From NCBI RefSeq assembly GCF_003018255.1, contig NZ_CP027440.1: a DNA stretch of 64,000 nucleotides. The stretch is one strand, 5' to 3'. Made by a program: the position numbers and the translations under genes. The notes beneath the pieces are model-generated. The model had not been told where the DNA came from, searched no databases, and saw only the letters and a list, made by a program, of their open reading frames with translations. Of the stretch, positions 19,658-64,000 are shown piece after piece; the first letter of the stretch is position 1; each line of letters opens with the position of its first letter. The stretch comes from Escherichia coli (lineage in GTDB: Bacteria > Pseudomonadota > Gammaproteobacteria > Enterobacterales > Enterobacteriaceae).

Positions 19658-21547
19658 TTATGCGCTACGACGCAGCATACCCTGTTTTTTCAGCCACACC
19701 AGCAGAATGGAGATGGCCGCAGGCGTGACGCCAGAAATACGCGAAGCCTGGCCGATAGAGGCCGGTTTGTGATCGTTAAGTTTGGCGATCACTTCGTTAG
19801 AAAGACCGGATACCTGGCGGTAATCCAGCGTCGCTGGTAGCAGGGTGTTCTCGTTACGCAGCTGCTTTTCGATCTCATCTTGCTGGCGCGCGATATAACC
19901 TTCGTATTTAACCTGAATCTCAACCTGTTCCGCCGCCTGTTCGTCTGTCAACGCAGGGGCAAACGGCGTCAGCGTGGTTAATTTTTCATAAGTCATTTCC
20001 GGACGACGCAGCAGATCTTCACCACTGGCTTCACGGGAAAGTGGCGCAGTCAGGTGAGCATTCACTTCGGCTGCAGCTTCCGCCGACGGGGTTACCCAGG
20101 TCGATTTCAGACGCTGACGCTCACGCTCGATATTCTCAAGTTTCTCGTTAAAGCGCGCCCAACGTTCGTCATCCACCAGGCCCAGTTCACGACCAATTTC
20201 AGTCAAACGCAGATCCGCATTATCTTCGCGCAGCATCAGACGATATTCTGCGCGCGAGGTAAACATACGATACGGTTCTTTGGTTCCTAAAGTGCACAGG
20301 TCATCAACCAGTACGCCGAGATACGCCTGAGAACGCGCCGGAGCCCAACCTTCTTTGTCAGCAGACAGACGGGCAGCGTTAAGACCGGCCAGCAAACCTT
20401 GCGCAGCGGCTTCTTCGTAACCGGTAGTGCCGTTAATCTGACCAGCAAAGAACAGCCCCTGGATAAACTTGCTCTCCAGCGTCGGTTTCAGGTCGCGTGG
20501 ATCGAAGAAGTCATACTCAATGGCATAACCCGGACGCACGATCTTCGCGTTTTCCATCCCCTGCATGGAGCGGACGATTTGCATCTGCACATCGAACGGC
20601 AGGCTGGTGGAGATACCGTTCGGATAAATTTCGTTTGAGGTCAGCCCTTCCGGTTCAAGGAAGATCTGATGCTGATTTCTGTCGGCGAAGCGCATGACTT
20701 TGTCTTCGATCGACGGGCAGTAGCGTGGGCCGACACCTTCGATCACCCCTGCATACATTGGGCTACGATCGAGGTTACTGCGGATCACATCATGGGTTTT
20801 CTCGTTGGTATGGGTGATATAACACGGCACCTGCTGTGGATGCTGGGACGCATTACCCATAAACGAGAATACCGGCATTGGGTTATCGCCATGCTGTTGC
20901 GCCAGCACGCTGAAGTCGATAGTACGCGCATCAATACGCGGCGGTGTCCCGGTTTTCAGACGACCAACGCGCAGCGGCAGTTCACGCAAACGGCGAGAGA
21001 GCGGAATGGACGGCGGATCACCAGCACGACCACCGCTGTAGTTATCCAGACCGATATGAATTTTACCGTCGAGGAACGTCCCAACGGTAAGCACGACGGC
21101 TTTGGCACGGAACTTCAGTCCCATTTGGGTAACAGCACCGACCACGCGATCGTTTTCGACAATAAGATCTTCAACCGCCTGCTGGAAGATCATCAGGTTC
21201 GGTTGGTTCTCCAGCGCCGTACGTACCGCCTGACGGTAGAGCACACGATCCGCCTGAGCTCGGGTAGCGCGAACCGCCGGTCCCTTGCTTGCGTTTAGTA
21301 TCCTAAACTGGATACCCGCCTGATCGATCGCTTTCGCCATCAGACCGCCGAGTGCATCCACTTCTTTTACCAGATGTCCCTTCCCAATACCGCCGATCGC
21401 CGGGTTGCAGCTCATCTGCCCCAGAGTGTCGATATTGTGTGTCAAAAGCAGAGTCTGTTGACCCATACGCGCCGCGGCCATCGCGGCCTCGGTGCCTGCA
21501 TGACCCCCGCCAATGATGATGACGTCAAAAGGATCCGGATAAAACAT
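19658..21547 (-). CDS. mnmG: tRNA uridine-5-carboxymethylaminomethyl modification enzyme MnmG (GidA)
   Basis: 629-aa ORF with FAD-binding motif [13 protein letters not shown]; oriC lies directly upstream. Confidence 0.97.
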
Positions 21548-21639
21548 GGTGATTGCCTCGCATAACGCGGTATGAAAATGGATTGAAGCCCGGGCCGTGG
21601 ATTCTACTCAACTTTGTCGACTTGAGAAAGACCTGGGAT

Positions 21640-21910
21640 CCTGGGTATTAAAAAGAAGATCTATTTATTTAGAGATCTGTTCTATTGTGATCTCTTATTA
21701 GGATCGCACTGCCCTGTGGATAACAAGGATCCGGCTTTTAAGATCAACAACCTGGAAAGGATCATTAACTGTGAATGATCGGTGATCCTGGACCGTATAA
21801 GCTGGGATCAGAATGAGGGGTTATACACAACTCAAAAACTGAACAACGGTTGTTCTTTGGATAACTACCGGTTGATCCAAGCTTCCTGACAGAGTTATCC
21901 ACAGTAGATC
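21640..21910. other. Chromosomal replication origin oriC
   Basis: Three AT-rich 13-mers (GATCTATTTATTT 21658-21670, GATCTGTTCTATT 21674-21686, GATCTCTTATTAG 21689-21701); DnaA boxes TGTGGATAA 21715-21723, TTATACACA 21821-21829, TTTGGATAA 21856-21864, TTATCCACA 21895-21903; about 14 GATC sites; flanked by mnmG and mioC. Confidence 0.95.
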
Positions 21911-21925
21911 GCACGATCTGTATAC

Positions 21926-22369
21926 TTATTTGAGTAAATTAATCCACGATCCCAGCCATTCTTCTGCCGGATCTTCCGGAATGTCGTGATCAAGAATGTT
22001 GATCTTCAGTGTTTCGCCTGTCTGTTTTGCACCGGAATTTTTGAGTTCTGCCTCGAGTTTATCGATAGCCCCACAAAAGGTGTCATATTCACGACTACCA
22101 ATACCGATTGCGCCAAAGCGGACCGCAGAAAGATCGGGCTTCTGTTCCTGCAATGCTTCATAGAAAGGAGAAAGGTTGTCCGGAATATCTCCGGCACCGT
22201 GGGTTGAGCTGATAACCAGCCAGATCCCAGAGGCAGATAAATCTTCCAACAGCGGACCGTGCAGCGTTTCGGTGGTAAAACCCGCCTCTTCCAGCTTTTC
22301 AGCCAGGTGTTCTGCTACATATTCGGCACCGCCGAGGGTGCTGCCGCTGATAAGAGTGATATCTGCCAT
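21926..22369 (-). CDS. mioC: FMN-binding flavodoxin-like protein MioC
   Basis: 147-aa ORF (MADITLISGSTLGGAEYVAEHLAEKLEEAGF...), adjacent to oriC. Confidence 0.95.
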   Translation of the reverse strand: MADITLISGSTLGGAEYVAEHLAEKLEEAGFTTETLHGPLLEDLSASGIWLVISSTHGAGDIPDNLSPFYEALQEQKPDLSAVRFGAIGIGSREYDTFCGAIDKLEAELKNSGAKQTGETLKINILDHDIPEDPAEEWLGSWINLLK

Positions 22370-22458
22370 AAACCGCCACCTTTATTAAGAGTGGCGTATT
22401 GTACGCTGTGAACGCGTTGGGATCTACCTGTGGAAAAGTATGGGATTAAAAAAGCCGA

Positions 22459-22917
22459 TCAGGGCTTGATGGTACGCATGATCGGGTTTTGCAGGACGAT
22501 CAATGTCTCGGTGGACTGAATTTCATCAATTGTTTGGATCTTGTTGATAAGTACATGCTGGAGAGCGTCGATCGAACGGCACATCACTTTTATAAAGATG
22601 CTGTAGTGGCCGGTGGTGTAATAGGCTTCAGTGACTTCATCAAGGCTTTCCAGTTTCGCCAGCGCGGAAGGATAGTCTTTGGCGCTCTTTAATATAATGC
22701 CGATAAAGCAGCCTACGTCATAACCGAGCTGCTTCGGGCTGACATCAATACGCGCCCCGGTAATGATCCCCGCCTGCTTCATTTTCTCTACTCGAACGTG
22801 AATCGTCCCCGGACTGACGCCAAATTGTTTCGCCAGTTCGGCGTAAGCGGTGCGCGCATTGCCCATTAATGCTTCCAGGATGCCACGGTCCAGATTGTCG
22901 ATTAGATAATTTTCCAT
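22459..22917 (-). CDS. asnC: Lrp/AsnC-family transcriptional regulator AsnC
   Basis: 152-aa ORF with N-terminal HTH, divergent from asnA. Confidence 0.95.
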   Translation of the reverse strand: MENYLIDNLDRGILEALMGNARTAYAELAKQFGVSPGTIHVRVEKMKQAGIITGARIDVSPKQLGYDVGCFIGIILKSAKDYPSALAKLESLDEVTEAYYTTGHYSIFIKVMCRSIDALQHVLINKIQTIDEIQSTETLIVLQNPIMRTIKP

Positions 22918-39425: not shown

Positions 39426-39609
39426 CTTGCTGGTTTGTGAGTGAAAGTCACCTGCCTTAATATCTCAAAACTCATCTTCGGGTGATGTTTGAGATATTTG
39501 CTCTTTAAAAATCTGGATCAAGCTGAAAATTGAAACACTGAACAACGAAAGTTGTTCGTGAGTCTCTCAAATTTTCGCAACTCTGAAGTGAAACATCTTC
39601 GGGTTGTGA

Positions 39610-43879: not shown

Positions 43880-43997
43880 AGTGCTCTCCGCAAAATTATT
43901 TGTCGTTATGATTTAAATGTTTTGTTTTACACTCTGTCAAGCGTAACTAATACTCCGCGCCATAACTAGCTCGGTCAAAGAATTAGGAGCGTGCAGG

Positions 43998-44336
43998 ATG
44001 GCGGAAAGCTTTACGACGACTAATCGATATTTCGACAATAAACATTATCCACGTGGATTCTCTCGTCATGGTGACTTCACCATCAAAGAGGCACAACTGC
44101 TTGAGCGTCATGGTTATGCCTTCAATGAGTTGGATCTTGGCAAACGCGAGCCGGTTACCGAGGAAGAGAAACTCTTCGTAGCAGTATGCCGTGGCGAACG
44201 TGAGCCAGTGACAGAAGCAGAACGCGTGTGGTCCAAGTATATGACGCGTATCAAGCGTCCAAAACGTTTTCACACCCTTTCCGGCGGTAAACCGCAGGTT
44301 GAAGGTGCTGAAGACTACACCGATTCTGACGATTAA
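43998..44336 (+). CDS. maoP: Macrodomain Ori organisation protein MaoP (YifE)
   Basis: 112-aa ORF ([42 protein letters not shown]...), divergent from hdfR. Confidence 0.9.
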
Positions 44337-60667: not shown

Positions 60668-60797
60668 AGTGTGGTAGAATATCAGCTTACTATTGCTTTA
60701 CGAAAGCGTATCCGGTGAAATAAAGTCAACCTTTAGTTGGTTAATGTTACACCAACAACGAAACCAACACGCCAGGCTTATTCCTGTGGAGTTATAT

Positions 60798-61127
60798 ATG
60801 AGCGATAAAATTATTCACCTGACTGACGACAGTTTTGACACGGATGTACTCAAAGCGGACGGGGCGATCCTCGTCGATTTCTGGGCAGAGTGGTGCGGTC
60901 CGTGCAAAATGATCGCCCCGATTCTGGATGAAATCGCTGACGAATATCAGGGCAAACTGACCGTTGCAAAACTGAACATCGATCAAAACCCTGGCACTGC
61001 GCCGAAATATGGCATCCGTGGTATCCCGACTTTGCTGCTGTTCAAAAACGGTGAAGTGGCGGCAACCAAAGTGGGCGCACTGTCTAAAGGTCAGTTGAAA
61101 GAGTTCCTCGACGCTAACCTGGCGTAA
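60798..61127 (+). CDS. trxA: Thioredoxin 1
   Basis: 109 aa from [41 protein letters not shown]...; WCGPC active site; the track ORF begins 35 codons upstream. Confidence 0.97.
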
Positions 61128-62952: not shown

Positions 62953-64000
62953 GTGAATTTACTGACAGTGAGTACTGATCTCATCAGTATTTTTTTATTC
63001 ACGACACTGTTTCTGTTTTTTGCCCGTAAGGTGGCAAAAAAAGTCGGTTTAGTGGATAAACCTAACTTCCGCAAACGTCACCAGGGATTGATACCTCTCG
63101 TTGGGGGGATTTCGGTTTACGCAGGGATTTGCTTCACGTTCGGAATTGTCGATTACTATATTCCGCATGCATCTCTCTATCTCGCTTGTGCTGGTGTGCT
63201 TGTTTTCATTGGCGCGCTGGATGACCGTTTTGATATCAGCGTAAAAATCCGTGCCACCATACAGGCCGCTGTTGGCATTGTTATGATGGTGTTCGGCAAA
63301 CTTTATCTCAGTAGCCTGGGTTATATCTTTGGCTCCTGGGAGATGGTGCTCGGACCGTTTGGTTACTTCCTGACGCTATTTGCCGTCTGGGCGGCCATTA
63401 ATGCGTTCAACATGGTTGATGGCATTGATGGCTTGCTGGGTGGGTTGTCCTGCGTCTCGTTTGCAGCAATCGGTATGATTTTGTGGTTCGACGGGCAAAC
63501 CAGTCTCGCAATCTGGTGCTTTGCGATGATCGCCGCCATCCTGCCATACATCATGCTTAACCTTGGTATCCTGGGTCGCCGCTACAAAGTCTTTATGGGG
63601 GATGCGGGCAGTACGCTGATTGGTTTTACCGTTATCTGGATCCTGCTCGAAACGACCCAGGGCAAAACTCATCCCATCAGCCCGGTTACCGCTTTGTGGA
63701 TAATCGCCATTCCGCTAATGGATATGGTGGCGATTATGTACCGTCGCCTGCGTAAAGGCATGAGCCCATTCTCTCCAGACCGTCAGCATATTCACCATTT
63801 GATCATGCGTGCCGGGTTTACTTCCCGCCAGGCGTTTGTGCTGATTACCCTTGCCGCAGCACTGCTCGCTTCCATTGGCGTGCTGGCAGAATATTCTCAT
63901 TTTGTCCCGGAGTGGGTCATGCTGGTGCTCTTTTTGCTAGCATTCTTCCTCTATGGATATTGCATCAAGCGTGCCTGGAAAGTTGCTCGCTTTATTAAGC
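62953..64000 (+). CDS. wecA: UDP-GlcNAc:undecaprenyl-phosphate GlcNAc-1-phosphate transferase WecA (Rfe), runs to the window end without a stop
   Basis: GTG-initiated frame translating (M)NLLTVSTDLISIFLFTTLFLFFARKVAKKVGLVDKPNFRKRHQG...; absent from the ORF track because of the GTG start and missing stop. Confidence 0.9.
   Translation, partial: MNLLTVSTDLISIFLFTTLFLFFARKVAKKVGLVDKPNFRKRHQGLIPLVGGISVYAGICFTFGIVDYYIPHASLYLACAGVLVFIGALDDRFDISVKIRATIQAAVGIVMMVFGKLYLSSLGYIFGSWEMVLGPFGYFLTLFAVWAAINAFNMVDGIDGLLGGLSCVSFAAIGMILWFDGQTSLAIWCFAMIAAILPYIMLNLGILGRRYKVFMGDAGSTLIGFTVIWILLETTQGKTHPISPVTALWIIAIPLMDMVAIMYRRLRKGMSPFSPDRQHIHHLIMRAGFTSRQAFVLITLAAALLASIGVLAEYSHFVPEWVMLVLFLLAFFLYGYCIKRAWKVARFIK

What the first reader, a model, noticed from the sequence alone, without database searches (positions are those of the whole stretch)
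21640..21910. Complete oriC with canonical architecture
Three GATC-initiated AT-rich 13-mers followed by DnaA boxes in the order expected between mnmG and mioC, with a high density of GATC Dam sites. Useful as an anchor: the window is centred on the origin macrodomain (maoP also present).
Basis: partly seen in the sequence, partly recalled or inferred. Interest (0 to 1): 0.35.

Follow-up and report, generated by a model that had tools for sequence, protein, structure and literature searches.

The report
Ordinary E. coli chromosomal origin oriC
This is the standard chromosomal replication origin (oriC) of Escherichia coli, one base different from the textbook K-12 sequence and identical to that of many sequenced strains, so it is a correct but ordinary landmark.

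Summary
The observation and its interpretation both hold. The 378-bp spacer between mnmG (19658-21547, -) and mioC (21926-22369, -) aligns without gaps to the same spacer of E. coli K-12 MG1655 at 376/378 bases. The 245-bp minimal oriC (window 21658-21902) is 244/245 identical to K-12. It is 100% identical to the oriC of many complete E. coli genomes, including an O157:H7 strain.

All mapped elements are present in the canonical order: AT cluster, L/M/R 13-mers, R1, IHF site, R5M-tau2-I1-I2, R2, Fis site, the C3/C2 (R3) region, I3, C1 and R4.
- There are 11 GATC sites in 245 bp against 1.2 expected.
- Four DnaA boxes with at most one mismatch lie in 189 bp (P about 7e-7).
- The cumulative G-C minimum is at 21511, about 150 bp from the unwinding element.

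maoS (43947-43963, exact 17-mer) and maoP (43998-44336) are also present.

The only difference from K-12 inside oriC is A>G at 21848, the centre of the Fis 15-mer. That position carries G, A or C in hundreds of genomes each. Two small corrections apply: "centred on the macrodomain" is loose wording, and the stated coordinates are slightly wider than the minimal origin. The feature is already known and of low interest.

The parts
21658..21902 (+). Minimal oriC of 245 bp. The BamHI site GGATCC at 21636 is taken as position 1, which makes the minimal origin positions 23-267.
   Evidence: Gap-free alignment to MG1655, 244/245 identical. 100% identical to many complete E. coli genomes. The 245-bp minimal oriC made of a DUE and a DOR is described in PMC10325909.
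21646..21657 (+). AT cluster (TATTAAAAAGAA), an auxiliary unwinding region just outside the minimal origin
   Evidence: Exact K-12 sequence. Role as given in PMC10325909.
21658..21670 (+). L 13-mer of the duplex-unwinding element, GATCTATTTATTT
21674..21686 (+). M 13-mer, GATCTGTTCTATT. The single-strand DnaA-binding motif TTGT lies at 21685-21688.
   Evidence: The TT[A/G]T(T) motifs are described in PMC10325909.
21689..21701 (+). R 13-mer, GATCTCTTATTAG. The single-strand DnaA-binding motif TTATT lies at 21695-21699.
21715..21723 (-). DnaA box R1, perfect TTATCCACA, high affinity
   Evidence: It forms an 11-nt perfect inverted repeat with R4 (I1).
21742..21754 (+). IHF binding core, GATCAACAACCTG
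   Evidence: Exact match to the site listed in PMC4285127 Table 2. It lies between R1 and R5M, as PMC10325909 describes.
21759..21767 (-). Putative DnaA box tau1; the register is inferred
   Evidence: Placed 11 bp left of R5M by the 2-bp spacing rule (PMC6158602). The sequence is identical to K-12. Binding at tau1 is disputed: PMC6158602 detected none.
21770..21778 (-). DnaA box R5M, TCATTCACA, low affinity
21781..21811 (-). Low-affinity DnaA-ATP sites tau2 (21781-21789), I1 (21792-21800) and I2 (21803-21811), forming the left array
   Evidence: Sequence identical to K-12. The 9-mers are found at an 11-bp period. Their registers come from the published 2-bp spacing rule and from my memory of the site sequences, not from a table I could read.
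21821..21829 (+). DnaA box R2, TTATACACA, moderate affinity
21841..21855 (.). Fis binding 15-mer, GAACAACGGTTGTTC. K-12 has A at the centre position, 21848.
   Evidence: K-12 site GAACAACAGTTGTTC from PMC4285127 Table 2. The substitution is seen.
21851..21870 (+). C3 and C2 low-affinity site region. It contains the classical R3 box TTATCCAAA at 21856-21864 (-).
   Evidence: R3 box. C3/C2 registers are inferred from the 11-bp period counted from R4. The overlap of Fis with C3 is stated in PMC4285127.
21873..21892 (+). Low-affinity sites I3 (21873-21881, TGATCCAAG) and C1 (21884-21892, TCCTGACAG), forming the right array
   Evidence: I3 is the mirror image of the I2 region (I5: 12 nt, 92% complementary).
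21895..21903 (+). DnaA box R4, perfect TTATCCACA, high affinity
21908..21927 (.). Rob (right oriC-binding protein) site, ATCGCACGATCTGTATACTT. It reaches the mioC stop codon.
   Evidence: Exact match to PMC4285127 Table 2.
19658..21547 (-). mnmG (gidA), the left flanking gene, transcribed away from oriC
   Evidence: TIGR00136, 1017 bits. RefSeq annotation of a 100% identical genome.
21926..22369 (-). mioC, the right flanking gene, transcribed towards oriC
   Evidence: NF006531, 245 bits.
22429..22437 (-). DnaA box TTTTCCACA upstream of mioC
   Evidence: That DnaA regulates the mioC promoter comes from my own knowledge and was not tested here.
43947..43963 (+). maoS, the 17-bp cis site of the Ori macrodomain system
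   Evidence: Exact CTAATACTCCGCGCCAT, with 0 expected by chance. Sequence from PMC5023128. It lies in a 118-bp hdfR-maoP spacer, as in that paper.
43998..44336 (+). maoP (yifE)
   Evidence: ORF of 112 aa. Its translation equals that of the gene annotated as MaoP, WP_000841001.1. NF008251, 254 bits.

Best explanation
The region is the single chromosomal replication origin, oriC, of an Escherichia coli strain, in its native place between mnmG and mioC. It should work as the K-12 origin does.

1. DnaA sits on the high-affinity boxes R1, R2 and R4.
2. [quoted passage not shown]
3. Fis, bound between R2 and C3, is displaced.
4. IHF binds between R1 and R5M and bends the DNA back.
5. The left DnaA oligomer then captures the T-rich strand of the M/R 13-mers through the TT[A/G]T(T) motifs, which stabilises unwinding of the AT-rich element.
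6. Two DnaB helicases are loaded.
7. After firing, the 11 hemimethylated GATC sites are bound by SeqA, which blocks immediate re-initiation.

What is shown here: the sequence identity, the element order, the motif enrichment, the strand-composition switch and the gene context. What is inferred: every binding and unwinding step, carried over from published K-12 work.
For: - Identity: gap-free alignment to the MG1655 mnmG-mioC spacer at 376/378, with one difference inside oriC. The RefSeq origin_of_replication feature of MG1655 maps onto 21658-21889.
- Spread among genomes: the 401-bp and 245-bp queries match 5424 of 5426 complete E. coli genomes, on chromosomes only and at a median of one place per genome. 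Many matches are 100% identical.
- Element sequences: every element sequence looked for occurs once in the spacer, and they lie in the canonical order. The IHF, Fis, Rob and H-NS site strings came from PMC4285127.
- Motif enrichment: 11 GATC in 245 bp (P = 6e-8) and 4 strong DnaA boxes in 189 bp (P = 7e-7).
- Mirror symmetry: R1/R4 and I2/I3 form mirror-image pairs, which fits two opposed arrays.
- Unwinding element: 21646-21701 is 77% A+T. Its nearest-neighbour stability is -58.7 kcal/mol against a window mean of -79.0 with sd 5.1.
- Strand composition: GC skew is -0.041 to the left and +0.042 to the right, and the cumulative G-C minimum is at 21511.
- Context: window 1-25000 is 100.0% identical to a complete E. 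coli chromosome annotated pst, lpf, glmUS, atp, rsmG, mnmG, mioC, asnC, asnA in that order.
Against: Nothing argues against it. The limits are these:
- Origin activity was not measured.
- The one substitution, 21848 A>G, lies in the Fis site and moves the 15-mer from 2 to 3 mismatches against a degenerate Fis consensus that I quoted from memory.
- The exact registers of tau1, tau2, I1, I2, C2 and C3 could not be checked against a published table.
- The unwinding element is not the least stable duplex in the window, so low stability alone would not single it out.
Confidence: 0.98

Rival explanations
1. The motif cluster is a chance concentration of GATC, AT-rich 13-mers and DnaA-box-like 9-mers in an intergenic spacer, with no origin function.
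For: The degenerate 13-mer pattern is not enriched across the window: 20 hits against 19.3 expected. The generic IHF and Fis consensus scans hit several places in the spacer.
Against: The GATC count has P = 6e-8 and the DnaA box cluster P = 7e-7. The spacer is 376/378 identical to the experimentally defined K-12 origin. It is conserved in 5424 of 5426 genomes. The GC-skew minimum lies within about 150 bp of the unwinding element.
Confidence: 0.001
2. The sequence is an oriC copy outside its working context: a cloned minichromosome, an engineered construct, or a silent second copy, while the chromosome replicates from somewhere else.
For: A few genomes show two matching places. In the one such record listed, H116, the best match ends at the last base of the record. 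That fits a match split across the start of a circular record.
Against: The whole 64 kb is collinear with complete E. coli chromosomes at 99.4-100% identity. No match was on a plasmid. The window holds only one copy. Strand composition switches sign here.
Confidence: 0.01
3. The origin works, but the G at the centre of the Fis 15-mer (21848) measurably weakens Fis binding. Initiation timing or growth-rate dependence would then differ from K-12.
For: The substitution lies at the dyad centre of the published Fis site (PMC4285127). It adds one mismatch to the AT-rich core of a degenerate Fis consensus.
Against: G, A and C all occur at this position in hundreds of healthy natural isolates each, with exact 61-mers in 1269, 1144, 896 and 536 genomes. 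That pattern fits weak constraint rather than functional tuning.
Confidence: 0.1

Closest known systems
E. coli K-12 MG1655 oriC (NC_000913.3 3925744-3925975 as annotated; 245-bp minimal origin)
   Same: Same locus between mnmG and mioC, same length and same order of all elements. 244/245 bases are identical in the minimal origin and 376/378 in the whole spacer. Both have 11 GATC sites.
   Different: There is one substitution inside oriC: G for A at the centre of the Fis 15-mer (21848). A second lies outside it: 21620, A for G.
oriC of other natural E. coli lineages (for example O157:H7 strain 493/89, strains 120899, JNE23-011, DETEC-S792)
   Same: 100% identical over the minimal origin. JNE23-011, JNE112863 and DETEC-S792 are 100% identical over 401 bp.
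   Different: Nothing differs in those strains. Other lineages differ at 1-5 positions of the 305 bp compared, mostly in spacers, with recurrent change at 21848. O157:H7 Sakai loses the GATC of the R 13-mer.
MaoP/maoS Ori-macrodomain system (PMC5023128)
   Same: The exact 17-bp maoS lies in a 118-bp hdfR-maoP spacer. The maoP translation equals that of the gene annotated WP_000841001.1.
   Different: None seen. It lies about 22 kb clockwise of oriC and is a separate system, not part of the origin.

Membership tests
Enterobacterial (E. coli-type) oriC | Position between mnmG (gidA) and mioC | tested here: met
   mnmG is at 19658-21547 (-) and mioC at 21926-22369 (-). NCBIfam equivalog matches are far above their cut-offs, and RefSeq annotates the same genes in a 100% identical genome.
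Enterobacterial (E. coli-type) oriC | AT-rich unwinding element made of three tandem 13-mers that begin with GATC | tested here: met
   L is at 21658-21670, M at 21674-21686 and R at 21689-21701, all identical to K-12. The stretch is 77% A+T and about 4 sd less stable than the window mean.
Enterobacterial (E. coli-type) oriC | High-affinity DnaA boxes R1 and R4 in inverted orientation at the two ends, with R2 between them | tested here: met
   Perfect TTATCCACA lies at 21715-21723 (-) and 21895-21903 (+), and TTATACACA at 21821-21829 (+). R1 and R4 form an 11-nt perfect inverted repeat.
Enterobacterial (E. coli-type) oriC | Two opposed arrays of low-affinity DnaA sites at 2-bp spacing (R5M, tau2, I1, I2 / C1, I3, C2, C3) | tested here: met
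   The sequence across both arrays is identical to K-12. The 9-mers are found at an 11-bp period. The I2 and I3 regions are mirror images. The registers are partly from memory and DnaA binding was not tested.
Enterobacterial (E. coli-type) oriC | IHF site between R1 and R5M, and Fis site between R2 and R3/C3 | tested here: met
   The IHF core GATCAACAACCTG is exact at 21742-21754. The Fis 15-mer lies at 21841-21855 with one central substitution (site strings from PMC4285127).
Enterobacterial (E. coli-type) oriC | Strong over-representation of GATC (Dam/SeqA sequestration sites) | tested here: met
   11 in 245 bp against 1.19 expected, P = 6e-8. This is the densest 245-bp frame of the window.
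Enterobacterial (E. coli-type) oriC | Switch of strand compositional bias (GC skew) at the origin | tested here: met
   Skew is -0.041 to the left and +0.042 to the right. The cumulative G-C minimum is at 21511.
Enterobacterial (E. coli-type) oriC | DnaA-dependent unwinding and autonomous replication activity | not testable with these tools
   Inferred only from 244/245 identity to the experimentally defined K-12 origin, and from 100% identity to the origin of many viable isolates.
MaoP/maoS system | 17-bp maoS CTAATACTCCGCGCCAT in the hdfR-maoP spacer, next to the maoP gene | tested here: met
   Exact match at 43947-43963 with 0 expected. The spacer is 118 bp, as published (PMC5023128). The maoP translation equals that of the gene annotated WP_000841001.1.

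The most novel reading that the evidence does not exclude
The centre of the oriC Fis site (window 21848) carries G, A or C in large groups of natural E. coli. These alleles could set different Fis occupancies and so tune initiation timing by lineage. The window carries the G allele. The evidence here does not exclude this, but it fits a weakly constrained position at least as well.
Probability: 0.08. Interest if true: 0.25.

Novelty: already known. Interest (0 to 1): 0.04.

Why it matters
As biology it adds nothing new, because E. coli oriC is the best-studied bacterial origin. Its value is as an anchor:
- It fixes the organism as E. coli.
- It fixes the replichore boundary at about 21.7 kb. 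Genes to the left are read by the counter-clockwise fork and genes to the right by the clockwise fork.
- It places the window in the Ori region together with maoS and maoP.

Other findings in this window can be interpreted against that frame.

Tried and rejected
- Low-affinity site sequences. I tried to take the published 9-mers of tau1, tau2, I1-I3 and C1-C3 from papers. The texts held give only the architecture and the 2-bp spacing rule. The key paper, PMC3192301, is not held, and PMC6158602 has no supplement held as text. Those registers are therefore marked as inferred.
- IHF and Fis consensus scans. Both are uninformative at 2 mismatches or fewer. They gave 4 IHF-like windows and 8 Fis-like windows in the 271 bp scanned (21640-21910), and the window's own Fis 15-mer was not among them.
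- Promoter and terminator scan of 21400-22600. It found no more sites than shuffled sequence: 2 against 1.8, and 2 against 1.1. It says nothing about the gidA or mioC promoters.
- 13-mer pattern. On its own it is not enriched in the window; only the tandem trio is distinctive.
- Duplex stability. It ranks the unwinding element only sixth among non-overlapping 56-mers.
- Large collection scans. I did not scan genome or metagenome collections for origins of other genera, because near-identity to K-12 already settles the question.

Full report
What is there. The sequence at 21636-21930 reads as the E. coli origin of replication. Aligned to the mnmG-mioC spacer of E. coli K-12 MG1655, the window's 378-bp spacer (21548-21925) has no gaps and two differences. 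One is at 21620 (A for G), left of the origin. The other is at 21848 (G for A), inside it. RefSeq's origin_of_replication feature of MG1655 (3925744-3925975) maps to window 21658-21889. With the BamHI site GGATCC (21636) taken as position 1, the 245-bp minimal oriC (positions 23-267) is window 21658-21902.

Is it more than chance?
- GATC occurs 11 times in the minimal origin against 1.19 expected from the window-wide density (Poisson 6e-8). The densest 245-bp frame of the whole window is here, with 12 sites; outside 21100-22400 the maximum is 7.
- Boxes within one mismatch of TTATCCACA occur four times in 189 bp against 0.065 expected (P = 7e-7). Two of the window's three perfect boxes are R1 and R4.
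- The degenerate 13-mer pattern is not enriched in the window as a whole. Three tandem same-strand copies within 44 bp occur only here.

Anatomy. The elements lie in this order:
- AT cluster, 21646-21657.
- L, M and R 13-mers at 21658-21670, 21674-21686 and 21689-21701. The single-strand DnaA-binding motifs TTGT (21685-21688) and TTATT (21695-21699) lie in M/R, as described in PMC10325909.
- R1, 21715-21723 (-).
- IHF core GATCAACAACCTG, 21742-21754.
- R5M, 21770-21778 (-).
- tau2, I1 and I2 at 21781-21789, 21792-21800 and 21803-21811, an 11-bp period.
- R2, 21821-21829 (+).
- Fis 15-mer, 21841-21855.
- The C3/C2 region, which holds the classical R3 box at 21856-21864 (-).
- I3, 21873-21881, and C1, 21884-21892.
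- R4, 21895-21903 (+).
- Rob site, 21908-21927, which abuts the mioC stop codon.

The IHF, Fis, Rob and H-NS strings are those of Table 2 in PMC4285127. The 2-bp spacing rule for low-affinity sites comes from PMC6158602. The exact registers of tau1, tau2, I1, I2, C2 and C3 are partly from memory, because no paper I could read lists them. R1/R4 and I2/I3 are mirror-image pairs, which fits two opposed arrays.

Physical and compositional signs. The stretch 21646-21701 is 77% A+T. Its nearest-neighbour stability is -58.7 kcal/mol against a window mean of -79.0 with sd 5.1. It is the sixth least stable non-overlapping 56-mer of the window, so low stability alone would not identify it. GC skew is -0.041 left of the origin and +0.042 right of it. 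The cumulative G-C curve has its minimum at 21511, about 150 bp from the unwinding element.

Context. Window 1-25000 is 100.0% identical to E. coli JNE23-011. That genome's annotation gives pstA, pstC, pstS, an lpf-O113 fimbrial operon, glmS, glmU, atpCDGAHFEBI, rsmG, mnmG, then the spacer, then mioC, asnC, asnA and viaA. The right part of the window carries ravA, kup, rbsDACBKR, mdtD, yieP, an rRNA operon, hdfR, maoP, yifB, the ilv genes, ppiC, rep, gppA, rhlB, trxA, rho and wecA. NCBIfam equivalog models confirm MnmG, MioC and RsmG. The exact 17-bp maoS (sequence from PMC5023128) lies at 43947-43963 in a 118-bp hdfR-maoP spacer. The maoP translation equals that of the gene annotated WP_000841001.1. 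'Centred on the macrodomain' is loose, since oriC is not the middle of that domain (PMC5023128).

Comparison across E. coli. The 401-bp and 245-bp queries match 5424 of 5426 complete genomes, on chromosomes only and at a median of one place per genome. In an evenly spaced sample of the ranking, the first 6 of 40 rows are 100% identical over the minimal origin, including O157:H7 strain 493/89. I compared six other origins with the window over 305 bp (21628-21932): MG1655, O157:H7 Sakai, Combat11I9, ST131, THO-008 and GN06667. They differ from it at 1 to 5 positions, mostly in spacers. Position 21848 carries G, A or C. Exact 61-mers around that position occur as follows:

| Haplotype | Genomes |
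|---|---|
| Window type (G) | 1269 |
| K-12 type (A) | 1144 |
| C type (as in Combat11I9) | 896 |
| ST131 type (C, plus changes at 21847 and 21871) | 536 |

The window's only departure from K-12 is therefore a common natural allele, at the dyad centre of the Fis site.

Mechanism. By identity with the K-12 origin, the expected sequence of events is:
1. DnaA is bound at R1, R2 and R4.
2. DnaA-ATP fills the two low-affinity arrays cooperatively as its level rises.
3. Fis is displaced.
4. IHF binds between R1 and R5M and bends the DNA.
5. The left DnaA oligomer captures the T-rich strand of M/R through TT[A/G]T(T).
6. The AT-rich element is stably unwound and two DnaB helicases are loaded (PMC10325909).
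7. After initiation, SeqA binds the hemimethylated GATC sites and blocks the low-affinity sites (PMC4285127).

These steps are carried over from the literature. Only the sequence features were shown here.

Verdict. This is the already known E. coli oriC, a useful landmark of low intrinsic interest. The one reading with any novelty is that the three alleles at the Fis-site centre tune initiation. It is not excluded but is unlikely, and it would be a modest result if true.

Noticed in passing
window 21848 (Fis 15-mer 21841-21855); loci L005-L009: The centre base of the oriC Fis site carries at least three alleles among E. coli. Exact 61-mers occur as G (window type) in 1269 genomes, A (K-12 type) in 1144, C in 896, and an ST131-type C haplotype with two further changes in 536.
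   Followed up: yes
window 21658-21889 versus 21895-21903: The RefSeq origin_of_replication feature of MG1655 (232 bp) maps to 21658-21889. It stops 6 bp short of DnaA box R4, which the 245-bp minimal origin includes.
   Followed up: partly
window 2471-7450 (-): An lpf-O113 long polar fimbria operon (lpfA, lpfB, lpfC and a fimbrial protein gene) sits between pstS and glmS in a low-G+C stretch (about 0.45). Only 1945 of 5426 genomes cover at least 80% of window 1-25000, so this is a variable island.
   Followed up: partly
window 1-25000 versus 39001-64000: The left 25 kb is 100.0% identical to strain JNE23-011. The right 25 kb is only 99.4% identical to that strain and 99.7% to DETEC-S792. This suggests mosaic ancestry by recombination somewhere to the right of the origin.
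   Followed up: no
window 43947-43963 and 43998-44336: The exact maoS 17-mer and the maoP gene lie about 22 kb clockwise of oriC, in a 118-bp hdfR-maoP spacer as published.
   Followed up: yes
window 63695-63703 (-) and 22429-22437 (-): A third perfect DnaA box, TTATCCACA, lies inside wecA; about 0.5 are expected by chance in 64 kb on both strands. A TTTTCCACA box lies 60 bp upstream of the mioC start codon.
   Followed up: partly
window 21907-22004 and 22421-22573: GATC stays dense to the right of the minimal origin. Six sites lie in the 3' end of mioC and its flank, and six more in the mioC-asnC spacer and the 3' end of asnC.
   Followed up: no
window 11202-11359, 46164-46453, 39503-39602, 60728-60827: Rfam matches above gathering score: sRNA STnc410 between glmU and atpC, the Rev39 5'UTR at the ilv leader, StyR-44 in the rRNA operon spacer, and the TrxA 5'UTR thermometer.
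   Followed up: no
L005 (O157:H7 Sakai), equivalent to window 21689: Sakai has T for G at the first base of the R 13-mer, which removes one of the origin's GATC sites.
   Followed up: no
window 7464-7713, 2329-2384, 46093-46148: Several AT-rich spacers are predicted to be less stable duplexes than the origin's unwinding element. They lie in the lpf island and upstream of ilvL.
   Followed up: no
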